Of a DNA stretch of 64,000 bases, positions 4,647-5,664 are shown piece by piece (position 1 is the stretch's first letter; each line of letters opens with the position of its first letter). The notes beneath the pieces were generated by a model, which saw only the letters and a program-made list of their open reading frames with translations, searched no databases and was not told where the DNA came from. The position numbers and the translations under genes were made by a program. This DNA comes from Escherichia phage vB_EcoM_DalCa, in sequence record NC_054908.1; one strand, written 5' to 3'.

Positions 4647-4722
4647 TGGTCGAGGCAGTAGGGATCGAACCTACGACCTAGGACTTAGAAGGTCCTTGCT
4701 CTTCCTTCTGAGCTATGCCCCG
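4647..4722 (-). tRNA. tRNA-Arg (anticodon UCU)
   Basis: manual cloverleaf: acceptor CGGGGCA/TGCCTCG, D-stem GCTC/GAGC, anticodon loop CTTCTAA, T-loop TTCGATC, CCA encoded. Confidence 0.85.
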
Positions 4723-4726
4723 TAAT

Positions 4727-4802
4727 TGGGGTGACCGATGGGAGTCGAACCCATGACTACGAGAATCACAATCTCGAGTTCTACCAACTGAACTACGGCC
4801 AC
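4727..4802 (-). tRNA. tRNA-His (anticodon GUG)
   Basis: acceptor GTGGCCG/CGGTCAC, anticodon loop TTGTGAT, T-loop TTCGACT, discriminator C, CCA encoded; no G at -1. Confidence 0.8.
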
Positions 4803-4916
4803 ATTAATACCTACTCCAACAATCAAGATGTCTTCACACGAAATTAAGAGAAGAGTGATCAGTTCAACCCCTATAATCGCGTCAAGTAGATATTAATGTG
4901 ACAGTTGTCACAAATT

Positions 4917-4991
4917 TGGCGGACGTGATAGGATTCGAACCTATAACCAATCGCTTAACAGGCGATCGCTCTGCCATTGAGCTACACATCC
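4917..4991 (-). tRNA. tRNA-Asn (anticodon GUU)
   Basis: acceptor GGATGTG/CACGTCC, anticodon loop CTGTTAA, T-loop TTCGAAT, CCA encoded. Confidence 0.8.
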
Positions 4992-4995
4992 AAAT

Positions 4996-5082
4996 TGGTG
5001 GGGAGTGGTGGAGTCGAACCACCCGAGTCGCAATGACAATGGATTTACAGTCCACACCGCTACCTCTACGGGATAACTCCCC
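4996..5082 (-). tRNA. tRNA-Tyr (anticodon GUA), long variable arm
   Basis: acceptor GGGGAGT/ACTCCCC, anticodon loop CTGTAAA, T-arm GGTGG-TTCGACT-CCACC, CCA encoded. Confidence 0.8.
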
Positions 5083-5091
5083 AAATTAATT

Positions 5092-5166
5092 TGGTGGCCC
5101 TGGGTGGAATTGAACCACCATCTGGCGATTATGAGTCGCTTGCTTGAACCTTCCAGCTACAGGGCC
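5092..5166 (-). tRNA. tRNA with CAU anticodon (Ile-lysidine type or elongator Met)
   Basis: acceptor GGCCCTG/CAGGGCC, anticodon loop CTCATAA, T-loop TTCAATT; occupies the tRNA-Ile position of the T4 array. Confidence 0.75.
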
Positions 5167-5167
5167 T

Positions 5168-5243
5168 TGGTGCTGATTGACGGAATCGAACCGCCGACCT
5201 TCTCATTACAAGTGAGTTGCTCTACCTACTGAGCTAAATCAGC
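5168..5243 (-). tRNA. tRNA-Thr (anticodon UGU)
   Basis: acceptor GCTGATT/AATCAGC, anticodon loop CTTGTAA, T-loop TTCGATT, CCA encoded. Confidence 0.85.
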
Positions 5244-5248
5244 AAAAC

Positions 5249-5338
5249 TGGCGGAGGCGATAGGATTTGAACCTATGAGTCGCCGGAGCGACTGCCGGTT
5301 TTCAAGACCGGTGCATTAAACCACTCTGCCACGCCTCC
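5249..5338 (-). tRNA. tRNA-Ser (anticodon UGA), long variable arm
   Basis: acceptor GGAGGCG/CGCCTCC, anticodon stem-loop CCGGT-CTTGAAA-ACCGG, T-loop TTCAAAT, CCA encoded. Confidence 0.85.
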
Positions 5339-5340
5339 AG

Positions 5341-5414
5341 TCTCCGTGGCAGGATTTGAACCTACGACATTCTACTCCCAAAGCAGACGCTCTACCAAAC
5401 TGAGCTACACGGAG
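5341..5414 (-). tRNA. tRNA-Pro (anticodon UGG), no encoded CCA
   Basis: acceptor CTCCGTG/CACGGAG, anticodon loop TTTGGGA, T-loop TTCAAAT; 2 nt from tRNA-Ser 5' end. Confidence 0.85.
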
Positions 5415-5424
5415 TAAATTAAAT

Positions 5425-5498
5425 TGGAGCGGATAATGAGAATCGAACTCACATCATCAGATTGGAAGTCTGAGGTAATACCATTATACGATATCCGC
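5425..5498 (-). tRNA. tRNA-Gly (anticodon UCC)
   Basis: acceptor GCGGATA/TATCCGC, anticodon loop CTTCCAA, T-loop TTCGATT, CCA encoded. Confidence 0.85.
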
Positions 5499-5503
5499 AA
5501 ATT

Positions 5504-5590
5504 TGGTGCGAGAAGTGGGACTCGAACCCACAAGGAAATCATTCCGCAGCATTTTAAGTGCTGTGCCTTTACCAATTTGGCCATTCTCGC
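5504..5590 (-). tRNA. tRNA-Leu (anticodon UAA), long variable arm
   Basis: acceptor GCGAGAA/TTCTCGC, anticodon stem-loop CAGCA-CTTAAAA-TGCTG, T-loop TTCGAGT, CCA encoded. Confidence 0.85.
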
Positions 5591-5591
5591 G

Positions 5592-5664
5592 CTGGGAATA
5601 AAGGACTCGAACCTTTGCATCCTGGAATCAAAATCCAGTGCCTTACCAACTTGGCTAATTCCCA
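5592..5664 (-). tRNA. tRNA-Gln (anticodon UUG), no encoded CCA
   Basis: acceptor TGGGAAT/ATTCCCA, anticodon loop TTTTGAT, T-loop TTCGAGT; 1 nt from tRNA-Leu 5' end. Confidence 0.85.

What the first reader, a model, noticed from the sequence alone, without database searches (positions are those of the whole stretch)
4647..5664. Eleven-tRNA array: T4-type set plus His, Asn and Tyr
Hand-folded cloverleaves give, in transcription order, Gln(UUG), Leu(UAA), Gly(UCC), Pro(UGG), Ser(UGA), Thr(UGU), a CAU tRNA, Tyr(GUA), Asn(GUU), His(GUG), Arg(UCU). The first seven and Arg correspond to the eight T4 tRNAs; Tyr, Asn and His occupy the interval where T4 carries its small stable RNAs. Gln and Pro lack an encoded CCA and sit 1-2 nt from the next tRNA, matching the known T4 dimeric precursors Gln-Leu and Pro-Ser. 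The extra tRNAs could compensate for codon-usage differences or for host anticodon nucleases and tRNA-depleting defences.
Basis: partly seen in the sequence, partly recalled or inferred. Interest (0 to 1): 0.45.

Follow-up and report, generated by a model that had tools for sequence, protein, structure and literature searches.

The report
Known T-even phage eleven-tRNA operon

Summary
The window is a Tequatrovirus. The same 1.3 kb is 99.9% identical in fPS-65, G29, HP3 and others, where these eleven tRNAs are already annotated; about 185-260 phage records carry the arrangement.

Gln and Pro lack an encoded CCA and abut Leu and Ser as in T4. However, T4 holds the segB homing endonuclease between Ile and Arg, not its stable RNAs. 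The rnaD and rnaC homologs sit downstream here (about 4281-4021). The CAU and Arg tRNAs are T2-type alleles, about 61% identical to T4's.

Codon counts fit translational supplementation for the eight T4-type tRNAs and for Tyr and Asn, but not for His. Published work supports an anti-defence role for Tyr and makes one plausible for Asn.

Side observations: tRNA-His has no encoded G-1, and it follows a 114-nt spacer closed by a covarying helix, like T5's stable RNA III.

The parts
5734..5758 (-). Candidate T4 middle-promoter pattern (MotA-box-like TGCTTTA, then TAnnnT), 70-95 nt upstream of tRNA-Gln
   Evidence: Pattern match (9 matches in the window against 3.4 expected by chance, so weak evidence). 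Early promoters further upstream, at about 6693-6662, 6990-6962 and 7321-7293, follow from the fPS-65 annotation transferred; the latter two are also hits.
5592..5664 (-). tRNA-Gln(UUG); no encoded CCA; one nucleotide (C5591) before tRNA-Leu
   Evidence: 65/74 identical to T4 Gln, with the differences in the anticodon stem and at loop positions 32 and 38.
5504..5590 (-). tRNA-Leu(UAA), CCA encoded
   Evidence: 86/87 identical to T4.
5425..5498 (-). tRNA-Gly(UCC), CCA encoded
   Evidence: 74/74 identical to T4.
5341..5414 (-). tRNA-Pro(UGG); no encoded CCA; two nucleotides before tRNA-Ser
   Evidence: 62/75 identical to the T4 and T2 allele.
5249..5338 (-). tRNA-Ser(UGA), CCA encoded as in T2 (T4's gene lacks it)
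   Evidence: 90/90 identical to T2. Body identical to T4, but T4 has no CCA. PMC2330249 notes CCAG in T2L Ser.
5168..5243 (-). tRNA-Thr(UGU), CCA encoded
   Evidence: 73/76 identical to T4. Position 40 differs from E. coli thrU at the PARIS AriB cleavage site.
5092..5166 (-). CAU tRNA, most likely tRNA-Ile2 (lysidine, reads AUA); T2-type allele
   Evidence: 75/75 identical to T2 and 47/77 to T4 Ile. The anticodon stem-loop GCGACTCATAATCGC is identical to E. coli ileX and the C4-G69 and C5-G68 pairs are present. AUA codons are 5.1x enriched and AUG 0.8x.
4996..5082 (-). tRNA-Tyr(GUA), class II long variable arm
   Evidence: Rfam 30.3 bits. 86/87 identical to T6 tRNA-Tyr and 85/87 to T2. Variable arm and most of the T arm identical to T5 tRNA-Tyr.
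4917..4991 (-). tRNA-Asn(GUU)
   Evidence: 75/75 identical to T2. Anticodon-stem positions 39-41 are G, C, G against U, C, C in E. coli asnT.
4915..4941 (-). Intact 27-bp preferred SegB homing-endonuclease site (GGTTCGAATCCTATCACGTCCGCCAAA) spanning the 3' part of tRNA-Asn
   Evidence: Exact string present in the window and in T2, absent from the T4 and T6 loci. Consensus and diagnostic positions G6, A16, G18, A26 and A27 come from PMC2330249.
4803..4916 (-). 114-nt structured spacer 5' of tRNA-His. Its closing helix pairs 4897-4884 with 4816-4803 and ends at His position -1. A candidate small stable RNA or processing hairpin, comparable to T5 RNA III
   Evidence: Fold of -32.7 kcal/mol, z = -4.4. 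The same end-closed architecture occurs upstream of His in eight other genera and in T5. Covariation: 95.9% of cells paired, 7 of 14 pairs compensatory, 0 of 500 shuffles as high. No Rfam family matches.
4727..4802 (-). tRNA-His(GUG); C73 and CCA encoded; T at position -1, so no encoded G-1
4647..4722 (-). tRNA-Arg(UCU), T2-type allele carrying G3.U70
   Evidence: 74/76 identical to T2 and 48/79 to T4. Acceptor stem details.
4278..4628 (-). 116-aa ORF of unknown function between tRNA-Arg and the rnaD homolog (also present in T2, absent from T4)
   Evidence: phrog_3355, unknown function; no Pfam or PDB match; homologs only in T4-like phages; structure model has pLDDT 65 and no fold match.
4166..4281 (-). 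Homolog of T4 rnaD (species 2 stable RNA)
   Evidence: 97/121 identical to T4 rnaD, with a divergent centre; blastn.
4021..4159 (-). Homolog of T4 rnaC (species 1 stable RNA)
   Evidence: 138/139 identical to T4 rnaC.
3947..3970 (-). Intrinsic terminator downstream of the rnaC homolog, the likely end of the operon
   Evidence: 10-bp stem with 7 GC pairs, followed by a T run. Coincides with the terminator annotated in fPS-65.
5762..6635 (-). Three upstream ORFs homologous to T4 trna.2, trna.3 and trna.4, presumably co-transcribed with the array
   Evidence: synteny with T4.

Best explanation
The region is the tRNA operon of a Tequatrovirus, in the segB-free, T2-like haplotype, with tRNA-Thr retained and a 190-bp 'spacer + tRNA-His' cassette added.

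How it is probably made (inferred from T4, not shown here): the eleven genes are transcribed with the upstream trna.4/.3/.2 ORFs and the downstream ORF and rnaD/rnaC stable RNAs, as far as a terminator at 3970-3947. Host enzymes then cut the transcript: RNase P at each 5' end, 3' trimming, and the CCA-adding enzyme for Gln and Pro.

What it probably does (inferred): the eight T4-type tRNAs supplement decoding of A-ending codons, including AUA and AGA, which the AT-rich phage uses far more than E. coli does. Tyr and Asn serve the two amino acids most over-represented in the phage proteins. They also back up host tRNAs that defence nucleases destroy: Septu and retron-Eco7 cleave tRNA-Tyr, and PARIS AriB cleaves tRNA-Asn and tRNA-Thr.

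tRNA-His is not explained by demand. It most likely persists as an anti-nuclease spare, or because it travels as a cassette.

Which tRNAs a given T-even phage carries is shaped by recombination and by SegB homing. The window still carries the preferred SegB target inside tRNA-Asn.
For: Identity of the array: 11 tRNAs; 99.9% identical to many Tequatrovirus genomes, 260 records covering at least 80% of the 1.3-kb query; the same 11 tRNAs annotated in fPS-65; Asn-spacer-His-Arg in 185 records.

Haplotype.
- T4: Gln Leu Gly Pro Ser Thr Ile segB Arg rnaD rnaC.
- T2: Gln Leu Gly Pro Ser orf CAU Tyr Asn Arg orf.
- T6: Gln Leu Gly Thr CAU Tyr segB.
- The window shares its CAU, Tyr, Asn, Arg and Ser-CCA alleles with T2.

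Operon ends.

Codon demand (66 window ORFs with 19,115 codons against 40 E. coli CDS with 15,040 codons): AGA x10.3, AUA x5.1, UCA x4.1, ACA x3.8, GGA x3.5, UUA x2.7, CCA x2.0, CAA x1.6. Tyr (x1.78) and Asn (x1.66) are the two most enriched amino acids. His (x0.56) is the most depleted.

Defence link:
- T6 tRNA-Tyr, 86/87 identical to the window's, rescues phage from Septu when overexpressed or amplified, and T4, which lacks it, cannot escape (PMC13096335).
- PARIS AriB cleaves E. coli tRNA-Lys, Thr(UGU) and Asn(GUU) between positions 40 and 41, and T5 variants with changes there rescue infection (bioRxiv 10.1101/2025.02.04.636281).
- The window's Asn has G39 and G41 where E. coli has U39 and C41, and its Thr has G40 where E. 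coli has C40.
- Tyr, His and Asn are three of the four colicin E5 substrates (PMC9223846).
- The neighbourhood holds anti-defence genes: Acb1 (57B) at 7335-7793 and internal virion proteins.

SegB: the 27-bp preferred site is intact at 4915-4941 (PMC2330249).
Against: No expression, processing or charging data exist for this phage; everything functional is inferred.

In T6 the phage tRNA-Tyr is itself cleaved by Septu, and wild-type dosage is not enough to escape. So mere presence of the gene does not equal resistance.

The tRNA region is dispensable for T4 and T2 growth in the laboratory (PMC2330249).

tRNA-His lacks the encoded G-1 that bacterial HisRS uses as its main identity element, so it may be poorly charged.

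The codon comparison uses a small E. coli sample and heuristic ORF calls in a window rich in late structural genes.
Confidence: 0.9

Rival explanations
1. Pure translational supplementation. All eleven tRNAs, extras included, exist only to match the tRNA pool to the phage's AT-rich codon and amino-acid usage; there is no defence role.
For. Every T4-type tRNA reads a codon that is 1.6-10x enriched in the phage. Tyr and Asn are the two most enriched amino acids.
Against: His is the most depleted amino acid (x0.56), yet its tRNA is almost invariant across genera. T6 tRNA-Tyr has a demonstrated anti-Septu effect (PMC13096335). The tRNA region is dispensable in standard hosts (PMC2330249).
Confidence: 0.25
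2. Pure anti-defence spare parts. The extra tRNAs, and perhaps all of them, are there to replace host tRNAs cut by anticodon or variable-loop nucleases; the codon fit is secondary.
For: (Tyr, Asn and Thr are known nuclease targets). (substitutions at the AriB site in Asn and Thr; a T5-like variable arm in Tyr). (Tyr, His and Asn are colicin E5 targets). (anti-defence neighbours).
Against: T6 tRNA-Tyr is cleaved by Septu and needs amplification to work. The anticodon loops of Tyr, Asn and His are identical to the host's, so an E5-type anticodon nuclease would cut them too. The very strong codon fit of the eight T4-type tRNAs is hard to dismiss.
Confidence: 0.3
3. Largely selfish or neutral mosaicism. 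The presence or absence of Tyr, Asn, His and Thr reflects homing-endonuclease-driven gene conversion and recombination between conserved tRNA ends, not selection on each tRNA.
For: T2, T4, T6 and the window differ by whole-gene blocks whose edges lie at tRNA borders. SegB homing replaces the T2L Met-Tyr-Asn-Arg block in more than 99% of progeny. The preferred SegB site is intact here. The spacer+His unit recurs in different arrays: after Asn here, after Gln elsewhere.
Against: The tRNA-His sequence differs by one base among four genera while its leader interior has been replaced several times, which indicates purifying selection on the tRNA. All eleven keep canonical cloverleaves and high model scores.
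Confidence: 0.3
4. One or more of the extras is not a working aminoacyl-tRNA. In particular tRNA-His may be a poor HisRS substrate because it lacks G-1, acting as a decoy, a processing by-product or a decaying gene.
For: T at -1 where E. coli hisR has G. G-1 and C73 are the bacterial His identity set (PMC9976931). His codons are under-used.
Against: The same T at -1 is found in all ten distinct phage tRNA-His alleles examined, including T5 and a mycobacteriophage, and the gene is strongly conserved. That argues for function rather than decay. The T5 record notes that its His tRNA becomes an effective amber suppressor when the anticodon is changed.
Confidence: 0.15

Closest known systems
Phage T2 (T2L) tRNA gene region
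   Same: It has no segB. CAU is 75/75 identical, Asn 75/75, Ser with encoded CCA 90/90, Tyr 85/87 and Arg 74/76. The same 351-bp ORF follows Arg, and rnaD and rnaC lie downstream. The preferred SegB site in Asn is intact (PMC2330249).
   Different: T2 has a 402-bp ORF in place of tRNA-Thr, and it lacks the 114-nt spacer and tRNA-His. Its Arg has A3-U70 where the window has G3.U70. Its Gln and Pro are the T4-type alleles.
Phage T4 tRNA operon (Gln-Leu-Gly-Pro-Ser-Thr-Ile-segB-Arg-rnaD-rnaC)
   Same: Same genomic position, downstream of 57B, the internal proteins and trna.4-.2. Same order and spacing of the first seven anticodons. Gln-Leu and Pro-Ser are close-packed without CCA on the upstream member. 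rnaC is 138/139 identical.
   Different: T4 has segB between Ile and Arg and has no Tyr, Asn or His. Its Ile and Arg are only about 61% identical to the window's CAU and Arg. T4 Ser and Ile lack an encoded CCA, whereas the window's Ser and CAU encode it.
Phage T6 tRNA-rich region and the SegB-amplified tRNA-Tyr (PMC13096335)
   Same: tRNA-Tyr is 86/87 identical. It sits at the same locus, next to the CAU tRNA.
   Different: T6 carries segB directly after Tyr, which is needed for the amplification escape route. T6 lacks Pro, Ser, Asn and His, and its CAU is the T4-type allele. The window has no segB, so that escape route is not available in cis.
Phage T5 tRNA region, including RNA III (stable RNA) followed by tRNA-His
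   Same: A structured RNA of about 106 nt, closed by a terminal helix, lies immediately 5' of tRNA-His. His has T at -1. The Tyr variable and T arms are shared. Arg(UCU) has G3.U70.
   Different: T5 belongs to a different phage family and has an almost complete tRNA set spread over about 13 kb with promoters and HNH endonucleases. No primary-sequence similarity was seen between T5 RNA III and the window's spacer.
tRNA arrays of other Tevenvirinae genera (Karamvirus, Jiaodavirus, Moonvirus)
   Same: tRNA-His is identical but for one base. The spacer upstream of His is 88-92% identical in Karamvirus and Jiaodavirus.
   Different: There the cassette follows Gln and precedes Ser, within arrays of 12-15 tRNAs that also include Asp, Lys, Glu, Trp and Phe.

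Membership tests
tRNA (Rfam RF00005) | Cloverleaf sequence and structure scoring above the curated gathering threshold | tested here: met
   All 11 score above 29 bits: ten at 60-74 bits and Tyr at 30.3 bits. ARAGORN agrees.
tRNA (Rfam RF00005) | Seven-base-pair acceptor stem, a discriminator base and a 3' CCA that is either encoded or can be added | tested here: met
   All stems have 7 of 7 pairs, counting G.U. CCA is encoded in 9 of 11. Gln and Pro lack it, as in T4.
T-even phage tRNA operon | Position between the 57B / internal-protein / trna.4-.2 genes and the rnaD/rnaC stable RNAs | tested here: met
   Synteny and blastn against T4, T2 and T6. Acb1/57B lies at 7335-7793.
T-even phage tRNA operon | T4-type content: segB between Ile and Arg, and exactly eight tRNAs | tested here: not met
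   No segB. Three extra tRNAs. T2-type CAU and Arg alleles. The window is therefore a member of the T2-like haplotype, not the T4 haplotype.
tRNA-Ile2 (lysidine-modified CAU, reads AUA) | CAU anticodon with an Ile2-type anticodon arm and the C4-G69 and C5-G68 acceptor pairs. These are the TilS determinants as I recall them from Ikeuchi et al. 2005; I did not check that paper here. | tested here: met
   The 15-nt anticodon stem-loop is identical to E. coli ileX. Overall identity is 58/76 to ileX against 51/81 to metT. The C4-G69 and C5-G68 pairs are present.
tRNA-Ile2 (lysidine-modified CAU, reads AUA) | C34 actually converted to lysidine, and the tRNA charged with Ile | not testable with these tools
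   This needs mass spectrometry or tRNA sequencing. Indirect support: AUA is x5.1 enriched and AUG x0.8. GenBank records and PMC2330249 call this gene tRNA-Met.
Bacterial-type tRNA-His | Encoded G-1 pairing with C73 | tested here: not met
   Position -1 is T, whereas E. coli hisR has G-1. The same holds in all ten distinct phage His alleles examined.
Bacterial-type tRNA-His | GUG anticodon and C73 discriminator | tested here: met
Phage tRNAs that counter tRNA-cleaving defence systems | Isoacceptor of a host tRNA known to be cleaved by a defence nuclease | tested here: met
   Tyr (Septu, retron-Eco7). Asn and Thr (PARIS AriB). His was only a possible minor AriB product. Tyr, His and Asn are colicin E5 substrates.
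Phage tRNAs that counter tRNA-cleaving defence systems | Sequence change at the nuclease's cleavage or recognition site | tested here: inconclusive
   Asn differs at positions 39 and 41, and Thr at position 40, at the AriB site. Tyr has the T5-type variable arm. However, T6 tRNA-Tyr, which has the same arm, is still cut by Septu. The anticodon loops of Tyr, Asn and His equal the host's.
Phage tRNAs that counter tRNA-cleaving defence systems | Experimental rescue of infection | not testable with these tools
   Shown only for the 86/87-identical T6 tRNA-Tyr when overexpressed (PMC13096335) and for the more distantly related T5 Asn, Thr and Lys.
T5 RNA III-like stable RNA (proposed for the 114-nt spacer) | A segment of about 100 nt immediately 5' of tRNA-His whose ends pair into a long helix | tested here: met
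T5 RNA III-like stable RNA (proposed for the 114-nt spacer) | Accumulates as a discrete stable RNA in infected cells; sequence homology to T5 RNA III | not tested
   No RNA data are available. I ran no direct alignment of the spacer with T5 RNA III and saw no obvious similarity by eye. No Rfam family matches the spacer.

The most novel reading that the evidence does not exclude
The 'hairpin-closed leader + tRNA-His' unit may be a conserved, mobile cassette shared by at least three phage groups (Straboviridae, Vequintavirinae, Demerecviridae). Its tRNA deliberately lacks the G-1 identity element of the host's tRNA-His.

If so, the phage tRNA-His is not an ordinary HisRS substrate. It could be matured or recognised in an unrecognised way, or act as a decoy or spare for a nuclease that attacks GUN-anticodon tRNAs. 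The leader would then be a functional small RNA or an obligatory processing element rather than junk spacer.

A related oddity: the AGA-reading tRNA-Arg carries four of the five AlaRS determinants (G2-C71, G3.U70, G4-C69, A73).
Probability: 0.15. Interest if true: 0.55.

Novelty: already known. Interest (0 to 1): 0.18.

Why it matters
As stated, the finding adds nothing new. The same eleven tRNAs are annotated in deposited Tequatrovirus genomes; the T2-type region was mapped in 2008; and an anti-defence role for the T-even tRNA-Tyr was published in 2026.

Its practical value is as a correctly read landmark. It places the window in a segB-free, T2-like Tequatrovirus. It predicts that the phage would lose this block to T4 by SegB homing. 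It also predicts that the phage has Tyr, Asn and Thr spares relevant to Septu, retron-Eco7 and PARIS hosts, which matters for choosing therapeutic phages.

The side observations could matter more if confirmed. These are the phage tRNA-His genes without G-1, a covarying leader helix equivalent to T5's stable RNA III, and G3.U70 in tRNA-Arg. They bear on how phage tRNAs are matured and charged by host enzymes.

Tried and rejected
1. Tested whether Tyr, Asn and His replace T4's stable RNAs. Rejected: T4 has segB in that interval, and the window keeps rnaD and rnaC homologs downstream.

2. Looked for a known RNA family in the Asn-His spacer with a permissive Rfam scan. Only noise was found.

3. 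Considered that the end-closing helix is a special device tied to tRNA-His and its missing G-1. Weakened: other long spacers in related arrays (Asp-Met, His-Ser, Ser-Ile, Ser-Phe) are also end-closed.

4. Scanned IMG/VR for the His allele to obtain many leaders. Only 6 loci came back, most of them duplicates of GenBank phages.

5. The sigma-70 promoter and terminator scan of 3700-7400 was not above chance overall (14 against 11.6 promoters; 3 against 3.1 terminators). Only sites that agree with the fPS-65 annotation were used.

6. Tried to assign a function to ORF 4278-4628. It matches a PHROG of unknown function. It has no Pfam or PDB sequence match, and only 7 homolog clusters, those with a named source being T4-like phages. 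The AlphaFold model has pLDDT 65, and Foldseek against the PDB gave nothing below E = 0.5.

7. Searched the literature for phage tRNA-His lacking G-1 and for T5 RNA III. Nothing relevant is in the held library.

8. A search for genome papers reporting '11 tRNA' in T4-like phages returned only irrelevant hits. GenBank annotation was used instead.
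Full report
**Observation.** ARAGORN finds exactly eleven tRNA genes in the 64-kb window, all on the minus strand between 4647 and 5664. In transcription order they are Gln(UUG), Leu(UAA), Gly(UCC), Pro(UGG), Ser(UGA), Thr(UGU), a CAU tRNA, Tyr(GUA), Asn(GUU), His(GUG) and Arg(UCU). The Rfam tRNA model independently calls all eleven above its gathering score. Ten score 60-74 bits; the class II tRNA-Tyr scores 30.3 bits against a threshold of 29. All acceptor stems are fully paired. 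Nine genes encode CCA. Gln and Pro do not, and they lie 1 and 2 nt from Leu and Ser.

**What the window is.** The 1.3 kb around the array is 99.9% identical to many deposited Tequatrovirus genomes, including Yersinia phage fPS-65 and Escherichia phages G29, HP3 and YUEEL01. In all, 984 phage records match and 260 cover at least 80% of the query. fPS-65 is annotated with the same eleven tRNAs in the same order. The Asn-spacer-His-Arg segment alone occurs in 185 records, 181 of them at 99% identity or more. The feature is therefore already known and annotated.

**Comparison with T4, T2 and T6**:

| Phage | Order in the tRNA region |
|---|---|
| T4 | Gln-Leu-Gly-Pro-Ser-Thr-Ile-[segB]-Arg-rnaD-rnaC |
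| T2 | Gln-Leu-Gly-Pro-Ser-[ORF]-CAU-Tyr-Asn-Arg-[ORF] |
| T6 | Gln-Leu-Gly-Thr-CAU-Tyr-[segB] |
| Window | Gln-Leu-Gly-Pro-Ser-Thr-CAU-Tyr-Asn-[114-nt spacer]-His-Arg-[ORF]-rnaD-rnaC |

That T4 interval holds the GIY-YIG homing endonuclease gene segB, and the stable RNAs follow Arg.
- The window keeps its own stable-RNA homologs. The rnaC homolog is at 4159-4021 (138/139 identical to T4). The rnaD homolog is at about 4281-4166 (97/121). They lie after a 116-aa ORF (4628-4278) that T2 also has. A terminator follows at 3970-3947.
- By sequence, Gln, Leu, Gly, Pro, Ser and Thr are orthologs of the T4 genes (83-100% identity).
- The CAU and Arg tRNAs are only 61% identical to T4's Ile and Arg, but 100% and 97% identical to T2's.
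- Ser carries an encoded CCA as in T2. T4's Ser and Ile do not. The window therefore has two CCA-less genes (Gln, Pro), where T4 has four.
- The locus is best described as the segB-free, T2-type haplotype that has retained Thr and gained a 190-bp 'spacer + His' cassette.
- T4's dimeric precursors, and the lack of CCA in T4 Pro and Ser, are documented in PMC11143913.

**Identity of the CAU tRNA.** ARAGORN, GenBank and PMC2330249 call it Met. Its 15-nt anticodon stem-loop is identical to that of E. coli ileX, the lysidine-modified tRNA-Ile2. It has the C4-G69 and C5-G68 acceptor pairs. It is closer to ileX (58/76) than to metT (51/81). AUA codons are 5.1 times more frequent in the window's ORFs than in an E. 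coli sample, whereas AUG is 0.8 times. It is most likely an AUA-reading tRNA-Ile, the functional counterpart of T4's tRNA-Ile. The modification itself cannot be tested here.

**Codon and amino-acid demand**. I compared 66 window ORFs (19,115 codons) with 40 annotated E. coli K-12 CDS (15,040 codons).

| Codon read by a T4-type tRNA | Enrichment in the phage |
|---|---|
| AGA | x10.3 |
| AUA | x5.1 |
| UCA | x4.1 |
| ACA | x3.8 |
| GGA | x3.5 |
| UUA | x2.7 |
| CCA | x2.0 |
| CAA | x1.6 |

- Tyr, Asn and His are each read by a single GUN tRNA, so only amino-acid frequency matters for them.
- Tyr (x1.78) and Asn (x1.66) are the two most enriched amino acids.
- His (x0.56) is the most depleted.
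- Supply-and-demand therefore explains ten of the eleven tRNAs, but not His.
- Caveats: the host sample is small, the ORF calls are heuristic, and the window is rich in late structural genes.

**Defence link.**
- Tyr: a 2026 paper shows that Septu cleaves tRNA-Tyr in the variable loop. T6's own tRNA-Tyr rescues infection when overexpressed or amplified by SegB. T4, which lacks the gene, cannot escape (PMC13096335). The window's tRNA-Tyr is 86/87 identical to T6's, and its variable arm and most of its T arm are identical to T5's tRNA-Tyr. However, T6 tRNA-Tyr is itself cut, and single-copy dosage is insufficient. The window also has no segB with which to amplify the gene.
- Asn and Thr: PARIS AriB cleaves E. 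coli tRNA-Lys(UUU), Thr(UGU) and Asn(GUU) between positions 40 and 41. T5 variants altered around that site rescue infection (bioRxiv 10.1101/2025.02.04.636281). The window's Asn has G39, C40, G41 where asnT has U39, C40, C41. Its Thr has G40 where thrU has C40.
- Colicin E5: Tyr, His and Asn are three of its four substrates (PMC9223846). Their anticodon loops are identical to the host's, so they would not resist an E5-type enzyme.
- Neighbourhood: the array sits among anti-defence genes. These include Acb1 (57B) at 7335-7793 and internal virion proteins at 6694-6939 and 7004-7261.

**Mobility.** SegB recognises a 27-bp site built on the T-arm motif GGTTCRANTCC and ending in CCAR. Its preferred site is in T2L tRNA-Asn. 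In T4 x T2L crosses, homing replaces the Met-Tyr-Asn-Arg block in more than 99% of progeny (PMC2330249). The exact site, GGTTCGAATCCTATCACGTCCGCCAAA, is present at 4915-4941 in the window and in T2, and is absent from the T4 and T6 loci. The window also lacks T4's segC, segD and segE. The tRNA repertoire of a given T-even phage is thus partly a product of endonuclease-driven gene conversion.

**Side observation 1: no encoded G-1 in tRNA-His.**
- E. coli hisR starts G-1 G+1 (GGTGGCTA). The window has T at -1 (T|GTGGCCG), with C73 and CCA retained.
- The same T at -1 is found in all ten distinct phage tRNA-His alleles I examined. These come from Tequatrovirus, Karamvirus, Jiaodavirus, Moonvirus, Kagamiyamavirus, Aeh1, two Vequintavirinae, T5 and a mycobacteriophage.
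- G-1 together with C73 is the bacterial HisRS identity set (PMC9976931).
- I found no paper in the held library that discusses this for phage tRNAs.
- The gene is nearly invariant across genera while its flanks diverge, so it is under selection.
- How it is charged, and whether a G-1 is acquired, is open.

**Side observation 2: the 114-nt Asn-His spacer is structured.**
- The spacer (4916-4803) folds well: -32.7 kcal/mol, z = -4.4.
- In every array examined, tRNA-His is preceded by a 60-118-nt spacer. In most of them the two ends of the spacer pair into a 12-15-bp helix that stops at or one base before His -1 (in the window and in Aeh1 the helix starts 20 and 49 nt into the spacer). The interior has been replaced several times.
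- On a seven-sequence alignment of the helix arms, 95.9% of cells pair and 7 of 14 pairs show compensatory changes. No shuffle out of 500 reaches the observed values, and slid registers collapse to 39-57% paired. The arms were picked from predicted folds, so this test is lenient.
- In T5, the 106 nt immediately 5' of tRNA-His is annotated as 'RNA III, stable RNA with unknown functions' and folds the same way.
- The window's spacer is therefore most likely an RNA III-like processing hairpin or small stable RNA.
- Other long spacers in related arrays are also end-closed, so the feature is not unique to His.
- No Rfam family matches the spacer.

**Side observation 3: G3.U70 in tRNA-Arg(UCU).** The window's Arg has G2-C71, G3.U70, G4-C69 and A73. 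These are four of the five bacterial AlaRS determinants listed in PMC9976931. It also has A20, an ArgRS determinant. T2's allele has A3-U70; T5's Arg also has G3.U70. 157 phage records share the window's allele. Whether it is misacylated with Ala is unknown.

**Verdict.** The feature is already known and ordinary for this phage group. Its most likely mode of action is a mix of codon-supply supplementation and spare tRNAs against host tRNases, with content shaped by SegB-type homing. Interest in the finding as stated is low. The tRNA-His details are the only part that might repay further work.

Noticed in passing
window 4802-4803 (tRNA-His 5' end); also L005-L020, L025, L029: tRNA-His has T, not G, at position -1 while keeping C73. 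The same holds in all ten distinct phage tRNA-His alleles examined, including T5 and a mycobacteriophage. E. coli hisR encodes G-1, the main HisRS identity element.
   Followed up: partly
window 4803-4916 (minus strand): The 114-nt Asn-His spacer folds with z = -4.4. Its 14-bp closing helix (4897-4884 with 4816-4803) covaries across genera. A spacer with the same architecture precedes tRNA-His in Karam-, Jiaoda-, Moon- and Kagamiyamavirus, in Aeh1 and in Vequintavirinae. In T5 the equivalent piece is annotated as stable RNA III. No Rfam family matches it.
   Followed up: partly
window 4647-4722 (tRNA-Arg UCU): The acceptor stem carries G2-C71, G3.U70, G4-C69 and A73, which are four of the five bacterial AlaRS determinants. 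T2's allele has A3-U70; T5's Arg also has G3.U70. 157 phage records share the window's allele.
   Followed up: partly
window 5592-5664 (Gln) and 5341-5414 (Pro): The Gln and Pro alleles differ from the T4, T2 and T6 alleles by 8-13 substitutions. In Gln these lie in the anticodon stem and at loop positions 32 and 38, which makes the loop identical to that of E. coli glnU. In Pro they also affect the T and acceptor stems and mostly preserve pairing. So there are two allele classes within Tequatrovirus.
   Followed up: no
window 4915-4941: The exact 27-bp preferred SegB homing site of T2L tRNA-Asn is intact. In a co-infection with T4 this phage should lose its CAU-Arg block.
   Followed up: yes
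window 13583-13588, about 39330-39391 and about 44442-44462, compared with T4: The window lacks T4's segC, segD and segE as well as segB. It is a homing-endonuclease-poor Tequatrovirus in this 64-kb stretch.
   Followed up: partly
window 54874-56931 (minus strand): A full-length 685-aa ORF lies next to the alt gene, where T4 has only the short alt.-1 and alt.-2 remnants of an old alt duplication. From its position and from the T4 annotation note I take it to be a second Alt-like ADP-ribosyltransferase; I ran no family scan on it.
   Followed up: no
window 2732-3295, 3421-3894, 6694-6939 and 7004-7261 (minus strand): Four ORFs flanking the array begin with the MKTYxEF-type capsid-targeting motif of T4 internal proteins (my recollection of that motif). 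Two match PHROGs for internal virion or head proteins. The other two are paralogs in phrog_2280 and have no T4 counterpart. The tRNA array lies inside a hypervariable internal-protein region.
   Followed up: partly
window 7335-7793 (minus strand): The gene 57B homolog matches Pfam Acb1, the anti-CBASS nuclease (E = 2.7e-60), about 1.7 kb upstream of the array.
   Followed up: yes
window 4021-4159; L005 about 1554-1700: The rnaC homolog ends in a T-arm-like GGGTTCGAATCCCGG. In Karamvirus Entb_43, a 50-nt spacer that resembles the rnaC 5' part by eye is followed by a sequence that ARAGORN calls tRNA-Phe but the record does not annotate. This suggests that rnaC is a tRNA-derived RNA.
   Followed up: no
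L003 (T6) 648-722: T6's annotated 'tRNA-Thr' starts with the 5' end of tRNA-Pro (TCCGTGTAGCTCAG...). ARAGORN does not call it. It looks like a Pro/Thr fusion left by deletion of Pro and Ser.
   Followed up: no
window 4278-4628 (minus strand): A conserved 116-aa ORF lies inside the tRNA operon between Arg and rnaD. It is present in T2 and absent from T4. It has no Pfam, PDB or fold match, and its named homologs are all from T4-like phages.
   Followed up: yes
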